Source of the DNA: Escherichia coli
GTDB lineage: Bacteria; Pseudomonadota; Gammaproteobacteria; Enterobacterales; Enterobacteriaceae
NCBI RefSeq assembly: GCF_044324785.1
Contig: NZ_CP172127.1
Direction: 5' to 3' (one strand)
DNA length: 64,000 bases
A model generated the notes under the pieces. That model saw nothing but the letters and a program-made list of their open reading frames with translations, did no database searches and was not told the DNA's origin. Within the stretch, counting starts at the first letter, position 1; the number at the start of each line of letters is the position of its first letter. The position numbers and the translations under genes are program-made. Of the stretch, positions 38,328 to 42,882 are shown piece by piece.

Positions 38328-38732
38328 ATGCGTGCTTTACCGATCTGTTTAGTAGCACTCATGCTAAGCGGCTGTTCCATGTTAAGCAGATCCCCTGTCG
38401 AACCCGTTCAAAGCACTGCACCCCAGCCGAAAGCGGAGCCTGCAAAACCGAAAGCGCCGCGCGCCACGCCGGTCCGAATTTATACCAATGCAGAAGAATT
38501 AGTCGGCAAACCGTTCCGCGATCTCGGTGAAGTCAGTGGCGATTCTTGCCAGGCCTCCAATCAGGACTCTCCGCCGAGCATTCCAACCGCACGTAAGCGG
38601 ATGCAAATCAACGCCTCGAAAATGAAGGCCAATGCGGTATTACTGCATAGCTGCGAAGTCACCAGCGGTACGCCAGGCTGCTATCGTCAGGCTGTATGTA
38701 TCGGTTCTGCGCTTAACATTACGGCGAAATGA
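38328..38732 (+). CDS. rcsF: Outer-membrane lipoprotein RcsF (Rcs phosphorelay sensor)
   Basis: 134 aa; lipobox (LSGC); Pro/Lys-rich linker; C-terminal Cys pairs. Confidence 0.93.
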   Translation: MRALPICLVALMLSGCSMLSRSPVEPVQSTAPQPKAEPAKPKAPRATPVRIYTNAEELVGKPFRDLGEVSGDSCQASNQDSPPSIPTARKRMQINASKMKANAVLLHSCEVTSGTPGCYRQAVCIGSALNITAK

Positions 38733-39436
38733 GCAGTTTCCAGTTCGAGCAAATAGGCGTTATTCGCTCGCCCTATAAAGAAAAATTCGCCGTTCCGCGC
38801 CAGCCAGGTCTGGTAAAAAGCGCCAACGGCGAACTGCATCTCATTGCTCCCTACAACCAGGCCGATGCCGTTCGCGGCCTGGAAGCGTTCAGCCATTTAT
38901 GGATCCTTTTCGTCTTTCATCAAACGATGGAAGGCGGCTGGCGTCCGACTGTGCGTCCACCGCGCCTCGGCGGTAATGCCAGAATGGGTGTTTTCGCTAC
39001 GCGCTCCACTTTCCGCCCTAACCCGATTGGTATGTCGCTGGTAGAGCTGAAAGAGGTTGTTTGCCATAAAGACAGCGTGATTCTGAAGCTCGGCAGTCTG
39101 GATCTGGTAGATGGTACGCCGGTGGTGGATATCAAACCGTATCTCCCCTTTGCCGAATCGCTTCCAAATGCCAGTGCCAGCTATGCGCAAAGTGCGCCAG
39201 CGGCAGAGATGGCGGTGAGCTTTACCGCAGAGGTCGAAAAGCAGCTTTTGACGCTGGAGAAGCGTTATCCGCAGTTAACGCTGTTTATCCGCGAAGTACT
39301 GGCGCAGGACCCGCGCCCGGCCTATCGTAAAGGTGAGGAAACGGGCAAAACCTATGCCGTCTGGCTGCATGATTTTAACGTTCGCTGGCGCGTCACCGAC
39401 GCAGGTTTTGAAGTCTTTGCGCTGGAACCGCGTTAA
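38729..39436 (+). CDS. trmO: tRNA (adenine37-N6)-methyltransferase TrmO (YaeB/TsaA family)
   Basis: 235 aa; ATGA overlap with rcsF; conserved yaeB position before proS. Confidence 0.88.
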   Translation: MSSFQFEQIGVIRSPYKEKFAVPRQPGLVKSANGELHLIAPYNQADAVRGLEAFSHLWILFVFHQTMEGGWRPTVRPPRLGGNARMGVFATRSTFRPNPIGMSLVELKEVVCHKDSVILKLGSLDLVDGTPVVDIKPYLPFAESLPNASASYAQSAPAAEMAVSFTAEVEKQLLTLEKRYPQLTLFIREVLAQDPRPAYRKGEETGKTYAVWLHDFNVRWRVTDAGFEVFALEPR

Positions 39437-39546: not shown

Positions 39547-41265
39547 ATGCGTACTAGCCAATACCTGCTCTCCACTCTCAAGGAGACACCTGCCGACGCC
39601 GAGGTGATCAGCCATCAGCTGATGCTGCGCGCCGGGATGATCCGCAAGCTGGCCTCCGGGTTATATACCTGGCTGCCGACCGGCGTGCGCGTTCTGAAAA
39701 AAGTCGAAAACATCGTGCGTGAAGAGATGAACAACGCCGGTGCGATCGAGGTGTCGATGCCGGTGGTTCAGCCAGCCGATTTGTGGCAAGAGAGTGGTCG
39801 TTGGGAACAGTACGGTCCGGAACTGCTGCGTTTTGTTGACCGTGGCGAGCGTCCGTTCGTACTCGGCCCAACTCATGAAGAAGTTATCACTGACCTGATT
39901 CGTAACGAGCTTAGCTCTTACAAACAGCTGCCGCTGAACTTCTATCAGATCCAGACCAAGTTCCGCGATGAAGTGCGTCCGCGTTTCGGCGTCATGCGTT
40001 CCCGCGAATTCCTGATGAAAGATGCTTACTCTTTCCATACTTCTCAGGAATCCCTGCAGGAAACCTACGATGCAATGTATGCGGCCTACAGCAAAATCTT
40101 CAGCCGCATGGGGCTGGATTTCCGCGCCGTACAGGCCGACACCGGTTCTATCGGCGGTAGCGCCTCTCACGAATTCCAGGTGCTGGCGCAGAGCGGTGAA
40201 GACGATGTGGTCTTCTCCGACACCTCTGACTATGCAGCGAACATTGAGCTGGCAGAAGCTATCGCGCCGAAAGAACCGCGCGCTGCTGCTACCCAGGAAA
40301 TGACGCTGGTTGATACGCCGAACGCGAAAACCATCGCGGAACTGGTTGAACAGTTCAATCTGCCGATTGAGAAAACGGTTAAGACTCTGCTGGTTAAAGC
40401 GGTTGAAGGCAGTAGCTTCCCGCTGGTTGCGCTGCTGGTGCGCGGTGACCACGAGCTGAACGAAGTTAAAGCAGAAAAACTGCCGCAGGTTGCCAGCCCG
40501 CTGACTTTCGCGACCGAAGAAGAAATTCGTGCCGTGGTTAAAGCCGGTCCGGGTTCACTGGGTCCGGTAAACATGCCAATTCCGGTGGTGATTGACCGTA
40601 CCGTTGCGGCGATGAGTGATTTCGCTGCTGGTGCTAACATCGATGGTAAACACTACTTCGGTATCAACTGGGATCGCGATGTCGCTACCCCGGAAATTGC
40701 TGATATCCGTAACGTAGTGGCTGGCGATCCAAGCCCGGATGGTCAGGGTACGCTGCTGATCAAACGTGGTATCGAAGTTGGTCACATCTTCCAGCTGGGT
40801 ACCAAGTACTCCGAAGCACTGAAAGCCTCCGTACAGGGTGAAGATGGCCGTAACCAAATCCTGACGATGGGTTGCTACGGTATCGGGGTAACGCGTGTAG
40901 TAGCTGCGGCGATTGAGCAGAACTACGACGAACGCGGCATCGTATGGCCTGACGCTATCGCGCCGTTCCAGGTGGCGATTCTGCCGATGAACATGCACAA
41001 ATCCTTCCGCGTACAGGAGCTGGCCGAGAAACTGTACAGCGAACTGCGCGCGCAGGGTATCGAAGTGCTGCTGGATGACCGCAAAGAGCGTCCAGGCGTG
41101 ATGTTTGCTGATATGGAACTGATCGGTATTCCGCACACTATTGTGCTGGGCGACCGTAACCTCGACAACGACGATATCGAATATAAATATCGTCGTAACG
41201 GCGAGAAACAGTTAATTAAGACTGGTGACATCGTCGATTATCTGGTGAAACAGATTAAAGGCTGA
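39547..41265 (+). CDS. proS: Prolyl-tRNA synthetase
   Basis: 572 aa from ATG 39547 ([34 protein letters not shown]); longest ORF starts 54 nt upstream. Confidence 0.96.
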
Positions 41266-41274
41266 TGCCAGAAA

Positions 41275-41301
41275 GGGTCCTGAATTTCAGGGCCCTTTTT
41301 T
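41275..41301 (+). terminator. Rho-independent terminator of proS
   Basis: GGGTCCTGAA…TTCAGGGCCC hairpin followed by TTTTTT. Confidence 0.85.
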
Positions 41302-41317
41302 ACATGGATTGTATAAA

Positions 41318-42142
41318 ATGGATAAACCAAAGGCGCATTGCTGCCTGCTTCTCCCCTGCTTTCTTTTCCTTTCGGCCTGTACCGTAGATATCAGCCAGCC
41401 AGACTCATCAGCCACAGCGGTAGATGCCGGGGCAAAAACATGGGCTGTCAAATTCCAGCATCAAAGCTCTTTCACCGAACAATCAATAAAAGAAATAACG
41501 GTACCTGATCTCAAACACGGCGATTTGCTGTTCTCCTCAAGCCTTGGGGTAACCTCATTTGGAATCCGCGTCTTCAGCACTTCCTCTGTGAGTCACGTTG
41601 CAATCTATCTGGGTGATAATAACGTTGCAGAAGCGACAGGCGCTGGCGTCCAGATTGTTTCCCTCAAAAAAGCGATGAAGCATAGCGATAAGCTTTTCGT
41701 CTTACGAGTCCCGGATCTTACCCCGCAACAAGCCACAGAAATCACCGCGTTCACCAACAAAATTAAAGATAGCGGTTACAACTATCGCGGCATTGTCGAA
41801 TTTATTCCCTTTATGGTGACTCGCCAGATGTGCTCACTGAATCCGTTCTCCGAGGATTTTCGTCAACAGTGCGTCAGCGGCCTGGCGAAAGCGCAGTTAA
41901 GCAGTGTGGGCGAAGGAGACAAAAAGTCGTGGTTTTGTTCGGAATTTGTCACTGATGCATTTGCTAAAGCCGGGCATCCGCTTACACTGGCGCAATCGGG
42001 CTGGATTAGCCCTGCCGATCTGATGCATATGCGTATTGGTGATGTCTCTGCGTTTAAGCCAGAAACGCAGTTACAGTATGTTGGGCACCTGAAGCCAGGG
42101 ATTTATATCAAGGCGGGTCGCTTTGTTGGGCTGACTCAGTGA
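41318..42142 (+). CDS. yaeF: YaeF/YiiX-family lipoprotein (putative permuted papain-like peptidase)
   Basis: About 274 aa; lipobox (FLSAC); conserved position between proS and nlpE; start may be 41309 or 41318. Confidence 0.8.
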   Translation: MDKPKAHCCLLLPCFLFLSACTVDISQPDSSATAVDAGAKTWAVKFQHQSSFTEQSIKEITVPDLKHGDLLFSSSLGVTSFGIRVFSTSSVSHVAIYLGDNNVAEATGAGVQIVSLKKAMKHSDKLFVLRVPDLTPQQATEITAFTNKIKDSGYNYRGIVEFIPFMVTRQMCSLNPFSEDFRQQCVSGLAKAQLSSVGEGDKKSWFCSEFVTDAFAKAGHPLTLAQSGWISPADLMHMRIGDVSAFKPETQLQYVGHLKPGIYIKAGRFVGLTQ

Positions 42143-42143
42143 T

Positions 42144-42169
42144 GAAAGCCGGAGAATGCTCCGGCTTTC
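42144..42169. terminator. Bidirectional terminator between yaeF and nlpE
   Basis: Hairpin AAAGCCGGAG-AATG-CTCCGGCTTT between convergent genes. Confidence 0.7.
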
Positions 42170-42171
42170 AA

Positions 42172-42882
42172 TTACTGCCCCAAACTACTGCAATCCTGGT
42201 TCGGATAAAATTTACCCGCCGTATCGGGCGCTAATACTTTGGTTGGCGCACCGGTATCCGGATTAGCCTCAAGCGTAAAGTGCCCTTCTAATGACAGTAA
42301 CATCGGTTTTTCACTATGACCGCGCGCAGCCAGGTAGCCACGCTCCAGCTCTGCGTTATTCGCTACCATGAAACGTTTTCCGGTCGCGCAATCAGTGAAG
42401 GTCGCCGCATCAGCCATATAAAAATACATGCCCCGCAGGGTCATCGGCGTCATGGGTAAACTGGATTGTGCCGGTTCCAGCGTATAGTTGAACTGCGATT
42501 CAATCGGATTACCTTCACGATCGAGCATCTCCAGCGCATCTCCTTTCGCCCGATAATATGACTTTTCACCTTTGCTGTCGGTTAATACCAGCTTGTCAGC
42601 GGTTCGCGCCCATGTACCGTAGGAAGCGAAAGAGGAAGGCTCTTCACGCGCACCAAGATAGCGTTCATTCATCACCCAGGTTCCATCTTTTTCGAGGAAC
42701 AAAGAGGTTTCGATCCCTTCGCAATCGGCACACGGCAGCACGCCGCGCCAACTTTGCGGCATCGGTTTCAGTTCGGCAGCCTGCGCCGGAGAAAGCGTGT
42801 CGACTTCGGCCCGATTATTACATCCCATCAGAGTAAAGAGGCTGATTACAGCCATCGCTGTCACTATCGCTTTTTTCACCAT
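42172..42882 (-). CDS. nlpE: Envelope stress sensor lipoprotein NlpE (CutF)
   Basis: 236 aa; lipobox (LMGC); CxxC motif. Confidence 0.93.
   Translation of the reverse strand: MVKKAIVTAMAVISLFTLMGCNNRAEVDTLSPAQAAELKPMPQSWRGVLPCADCEGIETSLFLEKDGTWVMNERYLGAREEPSSFASYGTWARTADKLVLTDSKGEKSYYRAKGDALEMLDREGNPIESQFNYTLEPAQSSLPMTPMTLRGMYFYMADAATFTDCATGKRFMVANNAELERGYLAARGHSEKPMLLSLEGHFTLEANPDTGAPTKVLAPDTAGKFYPNQDCSSLGQ

What the first reader, a model, noticed from the sequence alone, without database searches (positions are those of the whole stretch)
41318..42142. YaeF lipoprotein of the permuted papain-like family in a conserved envelope-stress neighbourhood
YaeF carries a lipobox and, as I recall, belongs to the YiiX/YaeF family of predicted circularly permuted papain-like peptidases. 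It sits next to nlpE and rcsF, both outer-membrane stress sensors. Its function is unknown and the clustering may be meaningful.
Basis: partly seen in the sequence, partly recalled or inferred. Interest (0 to 1): 0.25.

Follow-up and report, generated by a model that had tools for sequence, protein, structure and literature searches.

The report
YaeF: known permuted-papain lipoprotein gene
This is the already annotated Escherichia gene yaeF, a lipoprotein that looks like an active cysteine enzyme with an unknown substrate, and its position near two stress-sensor genes is inherited gene order, not evidence of a shared job.

Summary

The "meaningful clustering" idea is not supported:
- nlpE is convergent to yaeF. 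rcsF lies 2.6 kb upstream, beyond trmO and proS.
- A contig carrying E. albertii NlpE and a Salmonella-like contig keep the whole block without yaeF.
- One Enterobacter genome keeps yaeF without nlpE.
- Distant lipoprotein homologues sit in unrelated neighbourhoods.

New here: the nearest non-enterobacterial relatives include 73 large proteins without signal peptides, in which the YaeF-like domain is fused to muramidase, amidase, M15, trypsin-like and C70 domains. This points to an envelope-degrading role.

Best guess: an outer-membrane-anchored periplasmic thiol acyl-hydrolase or acyl-transferase. The substrate is acyl/lipid (favoured) or peptidoglycan peptide, and this is unresolved. The gene is already known and its function is untested, so interest is low.

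The parts
41266..41301 (+). proS intrinsic terminator: a 14-bp G+C-rich hairpin plus U-run that ends 17 nt before the yaeF start codon
   Evidence: The RNA fold is -22.9 kcal/mol with z -4.3, and 0 of 200 shuffles fold as well. The same layout occurs in 15 orthologous loci. No sigma-70-like promoter was found in 41000-42400.
41318..42142 (+). yaeF coding sequence (274 aa plus stop)
   Evidence: It is 99.5% identical to yaeF of E. coli VCSW7.
41318..41380 (+). Lipoprotein signal peptide with lipobox LSA|C (residues 1-21; the Cys21 codon is 41378-41380). Residue +2 is Thr.
   Evidence: Read directly from the sequence. Cys21 is invariant in 25 orthologues.
41381..41485 (+). Tether / N-terminal extension (residues 22-56) with the conserved motif Q47...S51
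   Evidence: pLDDT is 65-84 with two short strands. Q47 is nearly invariant and S51 invariant.
41486..42094 (+). Permuted NlpC/P60 (Peptidase_C92) catalytic domain, residues 57-259
41594..41596 (+). His93 codon (catalytic histidine)
   Evidence: It aligns with BcPPNE His49 (numbering from PMC3142127). Conserved in 90 of 91 relatives.
41630..41632 (+). Glu105 codon (third member of the triad)
   Evidence: It aligns with BcPPNE Glu64. Glu in 89 of 91 relatives and Asp in the other 2.
41777..41779 (+). Tyr154 codon (the conserved NlpC/P60 tyrosine, proposed to stabilise the oxyanion/P1 carbonyl)
   Evidence: It aligns with YiiX Tyr115. Tyr in 79 and Phe in 9 of 91 relatives.
41783..41935 (+). Clade-specific helical insertion of about 50 residues (156-206) between Tyr154 and Cys207. 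It contains the conserved pair Cys172 (41831-41833) and Cys185 (41870-41872), a likely periplasmic disulfide.
   Evidence: Helices 156-173 and 179-193 appear in the model. C172 is conserved in 80 of 91 and C185 in 87 of 91 relatives. The equivalent alphaD-alphaF loop walls the S1 pocket in solved relatives (PMC3142127).
41936..41938 (+). Cys207 codon (catalytic nucleophile). It lies C-terminal to His93, which is the circular permutation.
   Evidence: It aligns with BcPPNE Cys154 and YiiX Cys128. Conserved in 90 of 91 relatives.
42137..42177 (.). Hairpin in the 29-bp spacer between the convergent genes yaeF and nlpE; a probable bidirectional terminator
   Evidence: The fold is -27.4 kcal/mol.

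Best explanation
The locus is yaeF. It encodes a lipoprotein that, after Lgt/LspA/Lnt processing at Cys21 and with Thr at +2, should be sorted by the Lol pathway to the inner leaflet of the outer membrane. There it holds a permuted NlpC/P60 cysteine-hydrolase domain in the periplasm on a tether of about 35 residues. The inferred chemistry is the thiol acyl-enzyme mechanism of the superfamily. His93, oriented by Glu105, activates Cys207. Cys207 attacks the carbonyl of an amide or ester, and Tyr154 stabilises the P1 carbonyl. The acyl-enzyme is then resolved by water (hydrolase) or by an amine or hydroxyl acceptor (acyltransferase). I favour a fatty-acyl-bearing envelope substrate, such as a lipoprotein N-terminus, a phospholipid or lipid A, over a peptidoglycan peptide, roughly 50:30. 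The S1 site is built by a clade-specific two-helix insertion that is probably stapled by a Cys172-Cys185 disulfide. The gene is probably expressed at a low level by read-through of the proS terminator. Its position between proS and nlpE, and 2.6 kb from rcsF, is ancestral synteny of Enterobacterales and not a functional module. Shown here: gene identity, lipobox, family membership, fold, conservation of the catalytic residues, and the synteny pattern. Inferred only: localisation, disulfide, substrate and mode of expression.
Against: No biochemical or genetic study of YaeF was found. In the closest non-enterobacterial clade the domain is fused to peptidoglycan hydrolases and proteases: Amidase_2/3, phage lysozyme, M15, trypsin-like and C70. 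It is never fused to a lipase or acyltransferase domain, which favours a cell-wall or protein substrate. YaeF also passes the gathering threshold of the canonical NlpC_P60 model (35.5 bits against 23). The functions of YiiX and BcPPNE are themselves only inferred from bound ligands.
Confidence: 0.6

Rival explanations
1. YaeF is a peptidoglycan-directed enzyme. It would be an outer-membrane-tethered endopeptidase or amidase that cuts stem peptides or the Lpp-peptidoglycan link, like MepS/NlpC but with a permuted fold.
For: Among 73 long relatives the YaeF-like domain is fused to Amidase_2 (7), Amidase_3 (6), phage lysozyme (3), M15/VanY (2) and PG_binding_1 (1). It passes the Pfam NLPC_P60 threshold. 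It shows weak PHROG matches to tail proteins, one annotated with lysin activity. A tethered outer-membrane lipoprotein is a common design for enzymes and regulators that reach the cell wall (general knowledge). B. subtilis YycO (Peptidase_C92) is listed as a candidate cell-wall hydrolase with activity not determined (PMC10653849).
Confidence: 0.3
2. One reading: YaeF works together with NlpE and/or RcsF in envelope-stress sensing, and the gene clustering reflects that link.
For: Four predicted lipoprotein genes (metQ, rcsF, yaeF, nlpE) lie within 5.5 kb. The order is conserved in about 22 Enterobacterales loci.
Against: nlpE is convergent to yaeF, with a terminator hairpin between them. A strong terminator separates proS from yaeF. 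rcsF is three genes away, behind two translation genes. The block is intact without yaeF on a contig carrying E. albertii NlpE (L048) and on a Salmonella-like contig (L052). yaeF occurs without nlpE in L021. Six distant homologues have unrelated neighbours. A CpxR-box scan gave only a 2-mismatch hit at background frequency.
Confidence: 0.05
3. YaeF is a catalytically inert scaffold or binding protein (a pseudoenzyme), or a decaying gene.
For: No activity has ever been reported. The gene has been lost in some lineages.
Against: The Cys/His/Glu/Tyr residues are invariant in 25 orthologues, and the Cys/His/Glu triad is about 97-99% conserved (Tyr about 87%) in 91 distant relatives. dN/dS is 0.06-0.13. 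The gene is intact in 5419 of 5426 E. coli genomes.
Confidence: 0.03

Closest known systems
E. coli K-12 YaeF (b0193); NCBIfam NF008552 'YaeF family permuted papain-like enzyme'
   Same: It is the orthologue. It has 96% protein identity to the main E. coli cluster and 527 bits against the equivalog model. Position and annotation match RefSeq genomes.
   Different: Only allelic divergence. This window comes from a lineage about 95-97% identical in DNA to most E. coli at this locus.
YiiX of E. coli (PDB 2IF6) and BcPPNE of Bacillus cereus (PDB 3KW0), the YaeF/YiiX permuted NlpC/P60 enzymes (Xu et al. 2011, PMC3142127)
   Different: Identity is only 25-26% in the structural alignment. Sequence E-values are weak: 2.8e-7 and 3.5e-3 with the YaeF profile. 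YaeF adds a lipoprotein signal, a tether, a roughly 50-residue two-helix insertion with a conserved Cys pair between Tyr and Cys, and a C-terminal YVGHLK motif. BcPPNE is described as probably cytoplasmic.
Permuted NlpC/P60 enzymes that handle acyl chains: TseH (6V98) and Tox-Act1 (T6SS effectors), PLAAT/HRASLS and LRAT, and S. aureus LnsA
   Different: They belong to different clades and are far more distant than YiiX. They are secreted toxins or cytosolic/membrane enzymes, not lipoproteins. No activity has been shown for YaeF.
Canonical NlpC/P60 peptidoglycan endopeptidases of E. coli (MepS/Spr, NlpC)
   Different: They have the canonical order (Cys before His), a polar S1 pocket and a much smaller domain. 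YaeF fails the defining topology.
Multidomain YaeF-like proteins from soil and other metagenomes, e.g. HJQ31286.1 (Pyrinomonadaceae) and MCB0208140.1 (Anaerolineae)
   Same: The YaeF-like domain covers residues 57-259, including the Cys pair and the YVGHLK motif. E-values are 1e-25 to 1e-53 against the YaeF profile.
   Different: They have no lipobox or signal peptide. They are 400-1538 aa long and fused to C70, amidase, lysozyme, M15 and trypsin-like domains, with a recurrent unannotated N-terminal motif. Their pocket-wall segments are less hydrophobic.

Membership tests
YaeF family (NCBIfam NF008552, equivalog) | Full-length HMM score at or above the curated cutoff (279 bits) | tested here: met
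   527.2 bits, E 6.9e-159, residues 1-274 aligned to profile positions 1-274.
Pfam PF05708 Peptidase_C92 (YaeF/YiiX) | Score at or above the gathering threshold (27 bits) | tested here: met
   43.9 bits, E 3.5e-11. The match covers only the N-terminal half of the model (profile 2-88 of 166), because of the insertion before the Cys helix.
[quoted passage not shown] | Circular permutation: the catalytic His and polar residue precede the catalytic Cys in the sequence | tested here: met
   The order is His93, Glu105, then Cys207. They align with BcPPNE His49, Glu64 and Cys154 (numbering from PMC3142127).
[quoted passage not shown] | The conserved fourth residue, a tyrosine | tested here: met
   Tyr154 aligns with YiiX Tyr115. 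It is invariant in 25 orthologues, and is Tyr or Phe in 88 of 91 relatives.
[quoted passage not shown] | The PPNE fold (five-stranded sheet subdomain plus helical subdomain) | tested here: met
[quoted passage not shown] | A hydrophobic S1 pocket, and triad side chains within hydrogen-bonding distance | not testable with these tools
   Model coordinates are not exposed. There is only indirect evidence: the hydropathy of the pocket-wall segments is KD 1.18 and 0.58.
[quoted passage not shown] | Cysteine-dependent catalytic activity | not testable with these tools
   No experimental report was found.
Bacterial lipoproteins (outer-membrane-sorted) | Signal peptide ending in the lipobox [LVI][ASTVI][GAS]C | tested here: met
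   L18-S19-A20-C21 follows a K-rich n-region and a hydrophobic core. The Cys is invariant.
Bacterial lipoproteins (outer-membrane-sorted) | No Lol-avoidance Asp at position +2 | tested here: met
   Residue +2 is Thr22. It is Thr, Ser or Ala in all 25 orthologues. The rule itself comes from established E. coli lipoprotein-sorting knowledge.
Bacterial lipoproteins (outer-membrane-sorted) | Actual acylation and outer-membrane localisation | not testable with these tools
   This needs globomycin or palmitate labelling and membrane fractionation.
Envelope-stress gene module with nlpE / rcsF | A shared transcription unit or divergent promoter | tested here: not met
   nlpE is convergent, with a hairpin between the genes. 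A terminator lies between proS and yaeF. rcsF is 2.6 kb upstream, behind trmO and proS.
Envelope-stress gene module with nlpE / rcsF | Co-occurrence and co-location across genomes beyond inherited synteny | tested here: not met
   The block occurs without yaeF in L048 and L052. yaeF occurs without nlpE in L021. Distant homologues sit in unrelated contexts.
Envelope-stress gene module with nlpE / rcsF | Regulation by Cpx or Rcs, or a stress phenotype | tested here: inconclusive
   The CpxR-box scan found one 2-mismatch site at 41245-41259, against 62 such sites in the window and 45 expected by chance. No expression or phenotype data are available.
Canonical NlpC/P60 peptidoglycan endopeptidases (PF00877) | Canonical order, with Cys N-terminal to His in one contiguous domain | tested here: not met
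   The PF00877 hit (35.5 bits) covers residues 29-121 only, the His-bearing half. The catalytic Cys is at 207.

The most novel reading that the evidence does not exclude
The YaeF clade is an envelope-lytic 'warhead' domain. The E. coli lipoprotein would be the housekeeping relative of a domain that many soil and sediment bacteria build into large, signal-less, multi-enzyme cell-wall-degrading proteins. Its true substrate would be a peptidoglycan- or Lpp-linked amide bond and not a lipid. That would break the current generalisation that permuted NlpC/P60 enzymes are lipid-directed, and it would add an unrecognised murein or Lpp hydrolase to E. coli.
Probability: 0.25. Interest if true: 0.5.

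Novelty: already known. Interest (0 to 1): 0.15.

Why it matters
YaeF is one of the E. coli lipoproteins for which I found no assigned function. It belongs to a branch of the NlpC/P60 superfamily with no published biochemistry that I could find for its bacterial housekeeping members. Knowing whether it trims acyl chains from lipoproteins or lipids, or cuts peptidoglycan, would fill a gap in envelope-maintenance enzymology. The practical results here are mostly negative. The neighbourhood with nlpE and rcsF should not be used to infer function. Two more useful leads are the fusion partners of the domain elsewhere and the clade-specific pocket insertion with a conserved Cys pair.

Tried and rejected
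1. The promoter/terminator consensus scan of 41000-42400 found no promoter and missed the proS terminator. Direct folding showed the terminator.
2. NsrR: a ChIP peak is listed near c0233/yaeF in CFT073 (PMC5320621). Two of that paper's three motifs were searched and are absent near yaeF in this window, so I dropped this lead.
3. The CpxR-box scan gave background-level hits only.
4. Salmonella context through the NCBI-named NlpE cluster P0363 was uninformative. That sequence is a contig-end fragment and all its contigs stop at nlpE. I used P0364/L052 instead.
5. In Citrobacter rodentium the region downstream of nlpE is rearranged, so it says nothing about loss of yaeF.
6. The first structure prediction used only enterobacterial sequences and was mediocre (pLDDT 70). 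It was replaced by a model from a deeper alignment.
7. Genomic contexts of two multidomain relatives showed only unannotated genes plus a subtilase, with no recognisable secretion or phage system.
It cannot be used to say which species lack yaeF.
9. Literature searches for yaeF, YiiX, b0193 and Peptidase_C92 found no functional study of YaeF.
10. Measuring triad distances and pocket hydrophobicity was impossible, because model coordinates are not exposed.

Full report
**1. What is there**

The window carries an ORF from ATG 41318 to TGA 42142 on the + strand, 274 codons.
- An in-frame TTG lies nine bases upstream, but RefSeq annotates the ATG.
- The 1-kb region matches 5423 of 5426 complete E. 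coli genomes and is annotated there as "yaeF: YaeF family permuted papain-like enzyme".
- The best match is the soil isolate VCSW7 at 99.5%. Most E. coli are 95-97% identical here and in proS, so the window comes from a somewhat divergent Escherichia lineage.
- Gene order, read from translations, Pfam and the RefSeq annotation, is: metQ, rcsF (38328-38732), trmO/tsaA (38729-39436), proS (to 41265), yaeF, then on the opposite strand nlpE (42172-42882), arfB and yaeQ.

**2. Checking the observation**

- *Lipobox.* The N-terminus MDKPKAHCCLLLPCFLFLSAC ends in L-S-A-C21. The Cys is invariant in 25 orthologues from Escherichia, Citrobacter, Klebsiella, Serratia and others. Residue +2 is Thr, so outer-membrane sorting is expected under the standard E. 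coli Lol rule. This is inference.
- *Family.* NCBIfam NF008552 scores 527 bits against a cutoff of 279. Pfam PF05708 Peptidase_C92 scores 43.9 bits against 27.
- *Selection.* dN/dS is 0.10-0.13 within Escherichia and about 0.06 against Citrobacter, so this is a maintained gene.
- *Neighbours.* nlpE is indeed adjacent. rcsF is not: it lies 2.6 kb upstream, beyond two translation genes.

**3. Fold and catalytic residues**

A first AlphaFold run on enterobacterial sequences alone was mediocre (pLDDT 70). I therefore searched 1.84 billion representative proteins with the YaeF profile. This gave 2265 hits at E<=1e-3 and 67 at E<=1e-30. I trimmed the domain from distant hits, built a 61-sequence alignment and re-predicted.
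- The new model has pLDDT 89.1 and pTM 0.86.
- Foldseek against the PDB puts 3KW0 (B. cereus BcPPNE) and 2IF6 (E. coli YiiX) on top.

The profile alignment to the PDB sequences, combined with the residue numbers in Xu et al. 2011 (PMC3142127), gives these equivalences:

| YaeF | Crystal-structure residue |
|---|---|
| His93 | BcPPNE His49 |
| Glu105 | BcPPNE Glu64 |
| Cys207 | BcPPNE Cys154 / YiiX Cys128 |
| Tyr154 | YiiX Tyr115 |

The permuted Cys-His-Glu triad and the signature tyrosine are therefore all present. They are invariant in the orthologues. In 91 distant relatives they are conserved 90/91 (His), 89/91 (Glu), 90/91 (Cys) and 79 Tyr plus 9 Phe of 91. I could not measure side-chain geometry, because model coordinates are not exposed.

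**4. Features specific to the YaeF clade**

- Between Tyr154 and Cys207 lies an insertion of about 50 residues that the model folds as two helices (156-173 and 179-193).
- The insertion carries a conserved Cys172/Cys185 pair (80/91 and 87/91). In a periplasmic protein this is most simply a disulfide. That is inference.
- According to Xu et al., the loop at this position (alphaD-alphaF) and the beta1-beta2 loop wall the S1 pocket of permuted enzymes. So the clade has its own pocket architecture.
- A C-terminal YVGHLK motif is also strongly conserved (His257 in 87/91).
- The pocket-wall segments are more hydrophobic in enterobacterial YaeF (Kyte-Doolittle 1.18 and 0.58) than in the multidomain clade (0.13 and 0.16). 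This is a weak hint towards an apolar ligand.

**5. Is the neighbourhood meaningful?**

I fetched loci encoding YaeF relatives from species-representative genomes and mapped the window's neighbour proteins onto them.
- In 23 Enterobacterales loci yaeF sits in the same place, downstream of proS. In 21 of the 22 loci that extend far enough, it is convergent with nlpE.
- This is a block of housekeeping genes, and the block behaves independently of yaeF:
  - A contig carrying the NlpE sequence that NCBI names E. albertii has nlpE 43 bp from proS with no yaeF and no remnant (L048).
  - A contig 93-95% identical in DNA to S. enterica shows the same arrangement (L052).
  - Enterobacter sp. BIGb0383 keeps yaeF but has arfB where nlpE should be (L021).
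  - Lipoprotein homologues at 35-43% identity in Pantoea, Neisseriaceae, Cardiobacteriaceae and Brachymonas have unrelated and mutually different neighbours.
- Within the window, a 14-bp hairpin plus U-run (the proS terminator; -22.9 kcal/mol, z -4.3) ends 17 nt before the yaeF ATG. No promoter-like site was found.
- The same terminator-then-start layout occurs in 15 orthologous loci. The spacer to nlpE is itself a hairpin (-27.4 kcal/mol).
- So yaeF shares no promoter with nlpE and is probably made by read-through from proS. This is inference.
- A CpxR-box scan was at background. Two of the three motifs from an NsrR ChIP peak reported near yaeF in CFT073 were searched, and neither occurs near yaeF in this window.
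- The clustering is best explained as ancestral synteny with lineage-specific losses.

**6. What the domain does elsewhere**

The 28 full-domain single-domain hits from the profile search are mostly lipoproteins. In addition, 73 (75 by the >=400-aa count) of the 150 best profile hits are long proteins of 400-1538 aa.
- By the count, the YaeF-like domain is C-terminal in 40, internal in 30 and N-terminal in 5.
- They have no signal peptide but share recurrent N-terminal motifs.
- Pfam scans find these partners: Peptidase_C70 (23), Amidase_2 (7), Amidase_3 (6), trypsin-like (5), phage lysozyme (3), M15/VanY (2), subtilase (1) and PG_binding_1 (1). No lipase or acyltransferase partner was found.
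- Named examples come from Pyrinomonadaceae and Anaerolineae MAGs.
- Two genomic contexts were uninformative: arrays of unannotated genes plus a subtilase.
- These look like multi-enzyme envelope-degrading proteins, which ties the YaeF clade to attack on or remodelling of the cell envelope.

**7. Mechanism**

The conserved residues and the fold support the superfamily's thiol acyl-enzyme chemistry. The substrate is not shown.
- *For an acyl or lipid substrate.*
  - YiiX crystallised with a fatty acid in a hydrophobic S1 pocket.
  - Every permuted relative that the papers read here describe as biochemically studied handles acyl chains: Tox-Act1, TseH, LnsA and LRAT/HRASLS.
  - The protein should sit at the inner leaflet of the outer membrane.
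- *For a peptidoglycan substrate.* The fusion partners above, and the cross-match to the canonical NlpC_P60 model.
- *My weighting.* Acyl/lipid about 0.5, peptidoglycan peptide about 0.3, other (a protein substrate or none) about 0.2.

**8. Comparison, novelty and score**

This is the known gene yaeF, in a family defined since 2003 and named in Pfam, NCBIfam and RefSeq, so it is already known. No functional study was found in the searchable literature. The suggested functional clustering is not supported. The only mildly new points are the fusion repertoire of the clade, the pocket insertion with a conserved Cys pair, and the terminator-proximal start. Interest is 0.15.

Noticed in passing
window 41266-41317: A strong proS terminator hairpin (14 bp plus U-run) ends only 17 nt before the yaeF ATG, with no promoter-like site nearby. 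The same layout, followed by an AAAGGA-type ribosome-binding site, is conserved in 15 orthologous loci. This suggests yaeF is expressed by terminator read-through.
   Followed up: partly
window 42137-42177: The 29-bp spacer between the convergent genes yaeF and nlpE forms an 18-bp hairpin (-27.4 kcal/mol), probably a bidirectional terminator. In most E. coli genomes the alignment to this window stops just past the yaeF stop codon (query position about 950 of 1001), so the spacer is more variable than the genes.
   Followed up: partly
proteins P0131-P0265; loci L053 6562-10689 and L054 8001-10127: 73 large proteins without signal peptides, from non-enterobacterial metagenomes, carry a YaeF-like domain fused to Peptidase_C70, Amidase_2/3, phage lysozyme, M15 and trypsin-like domains. 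Many start with a shared unannotated motif (MPAQIRPNRLEVTDRFPMLGFTIRT... or M.NR[LF]..LE...). They lie in same-strand arrays of unannotated genes with a subtilase. This may be an undescribed family of multi-warhead cell-wall toxins or lysins with an unknown delivery route.
   Followed up: partly
proteins P0138, P0145, P0149, P0150, P0161, P0173: Several long proteins match the YaeF profile in four separate stretches, with the best stretch covering only the N-terminal, His-bearing half (profile 53-160). This suggests tandem repeats of that half. Their meaning is unknown.
   Followed up: no
window 38729-38732: rcsF and trmO/tsaA overlap by 4 bp (the rcsF stop overlaps the trmO start). The stress sensor rcsF is therefore probably co-translated or co-transcribed with a tRNA methyltransferase gene, and the overlap is kept in the orthologous loci.
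   Followed up: no
whole window (tested at 39800-40800 and 41200-42200): Only 3-84 of 5426 complete E. coli genomes are >=99% identical to the window in yaeF or proS. The closest is a soil and leaf-litter isolate from Hong Kong (VCSW7). The source is a divergent, possibly environmental, Escherichia lineage.
   Followed up: partly
L048 5703-5744; L052 5703-5826; L021 7488-7543: Clean presence/absence polymorphisms occur in the proS-nlpE interval. yaeF is absent on a contig carrying E. albertii NlpE and on a Salmonella-like contig, with a terminator hairpin in its place in L048. nlpE is absent next to yaeF in Enterobacter sp. BIGb0383.
   Followed up: yes
PHROG phrog_1128: YaeF residues 54-237 match the phage family phrog_1128 at E 9e-22. 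That family is labelled 'enoyl-CoA hydratase/carnithine racemase-like', which looks like a mislabel for a YaeF-like N-terminal domain in a 381-position profile.
   Followed up: no
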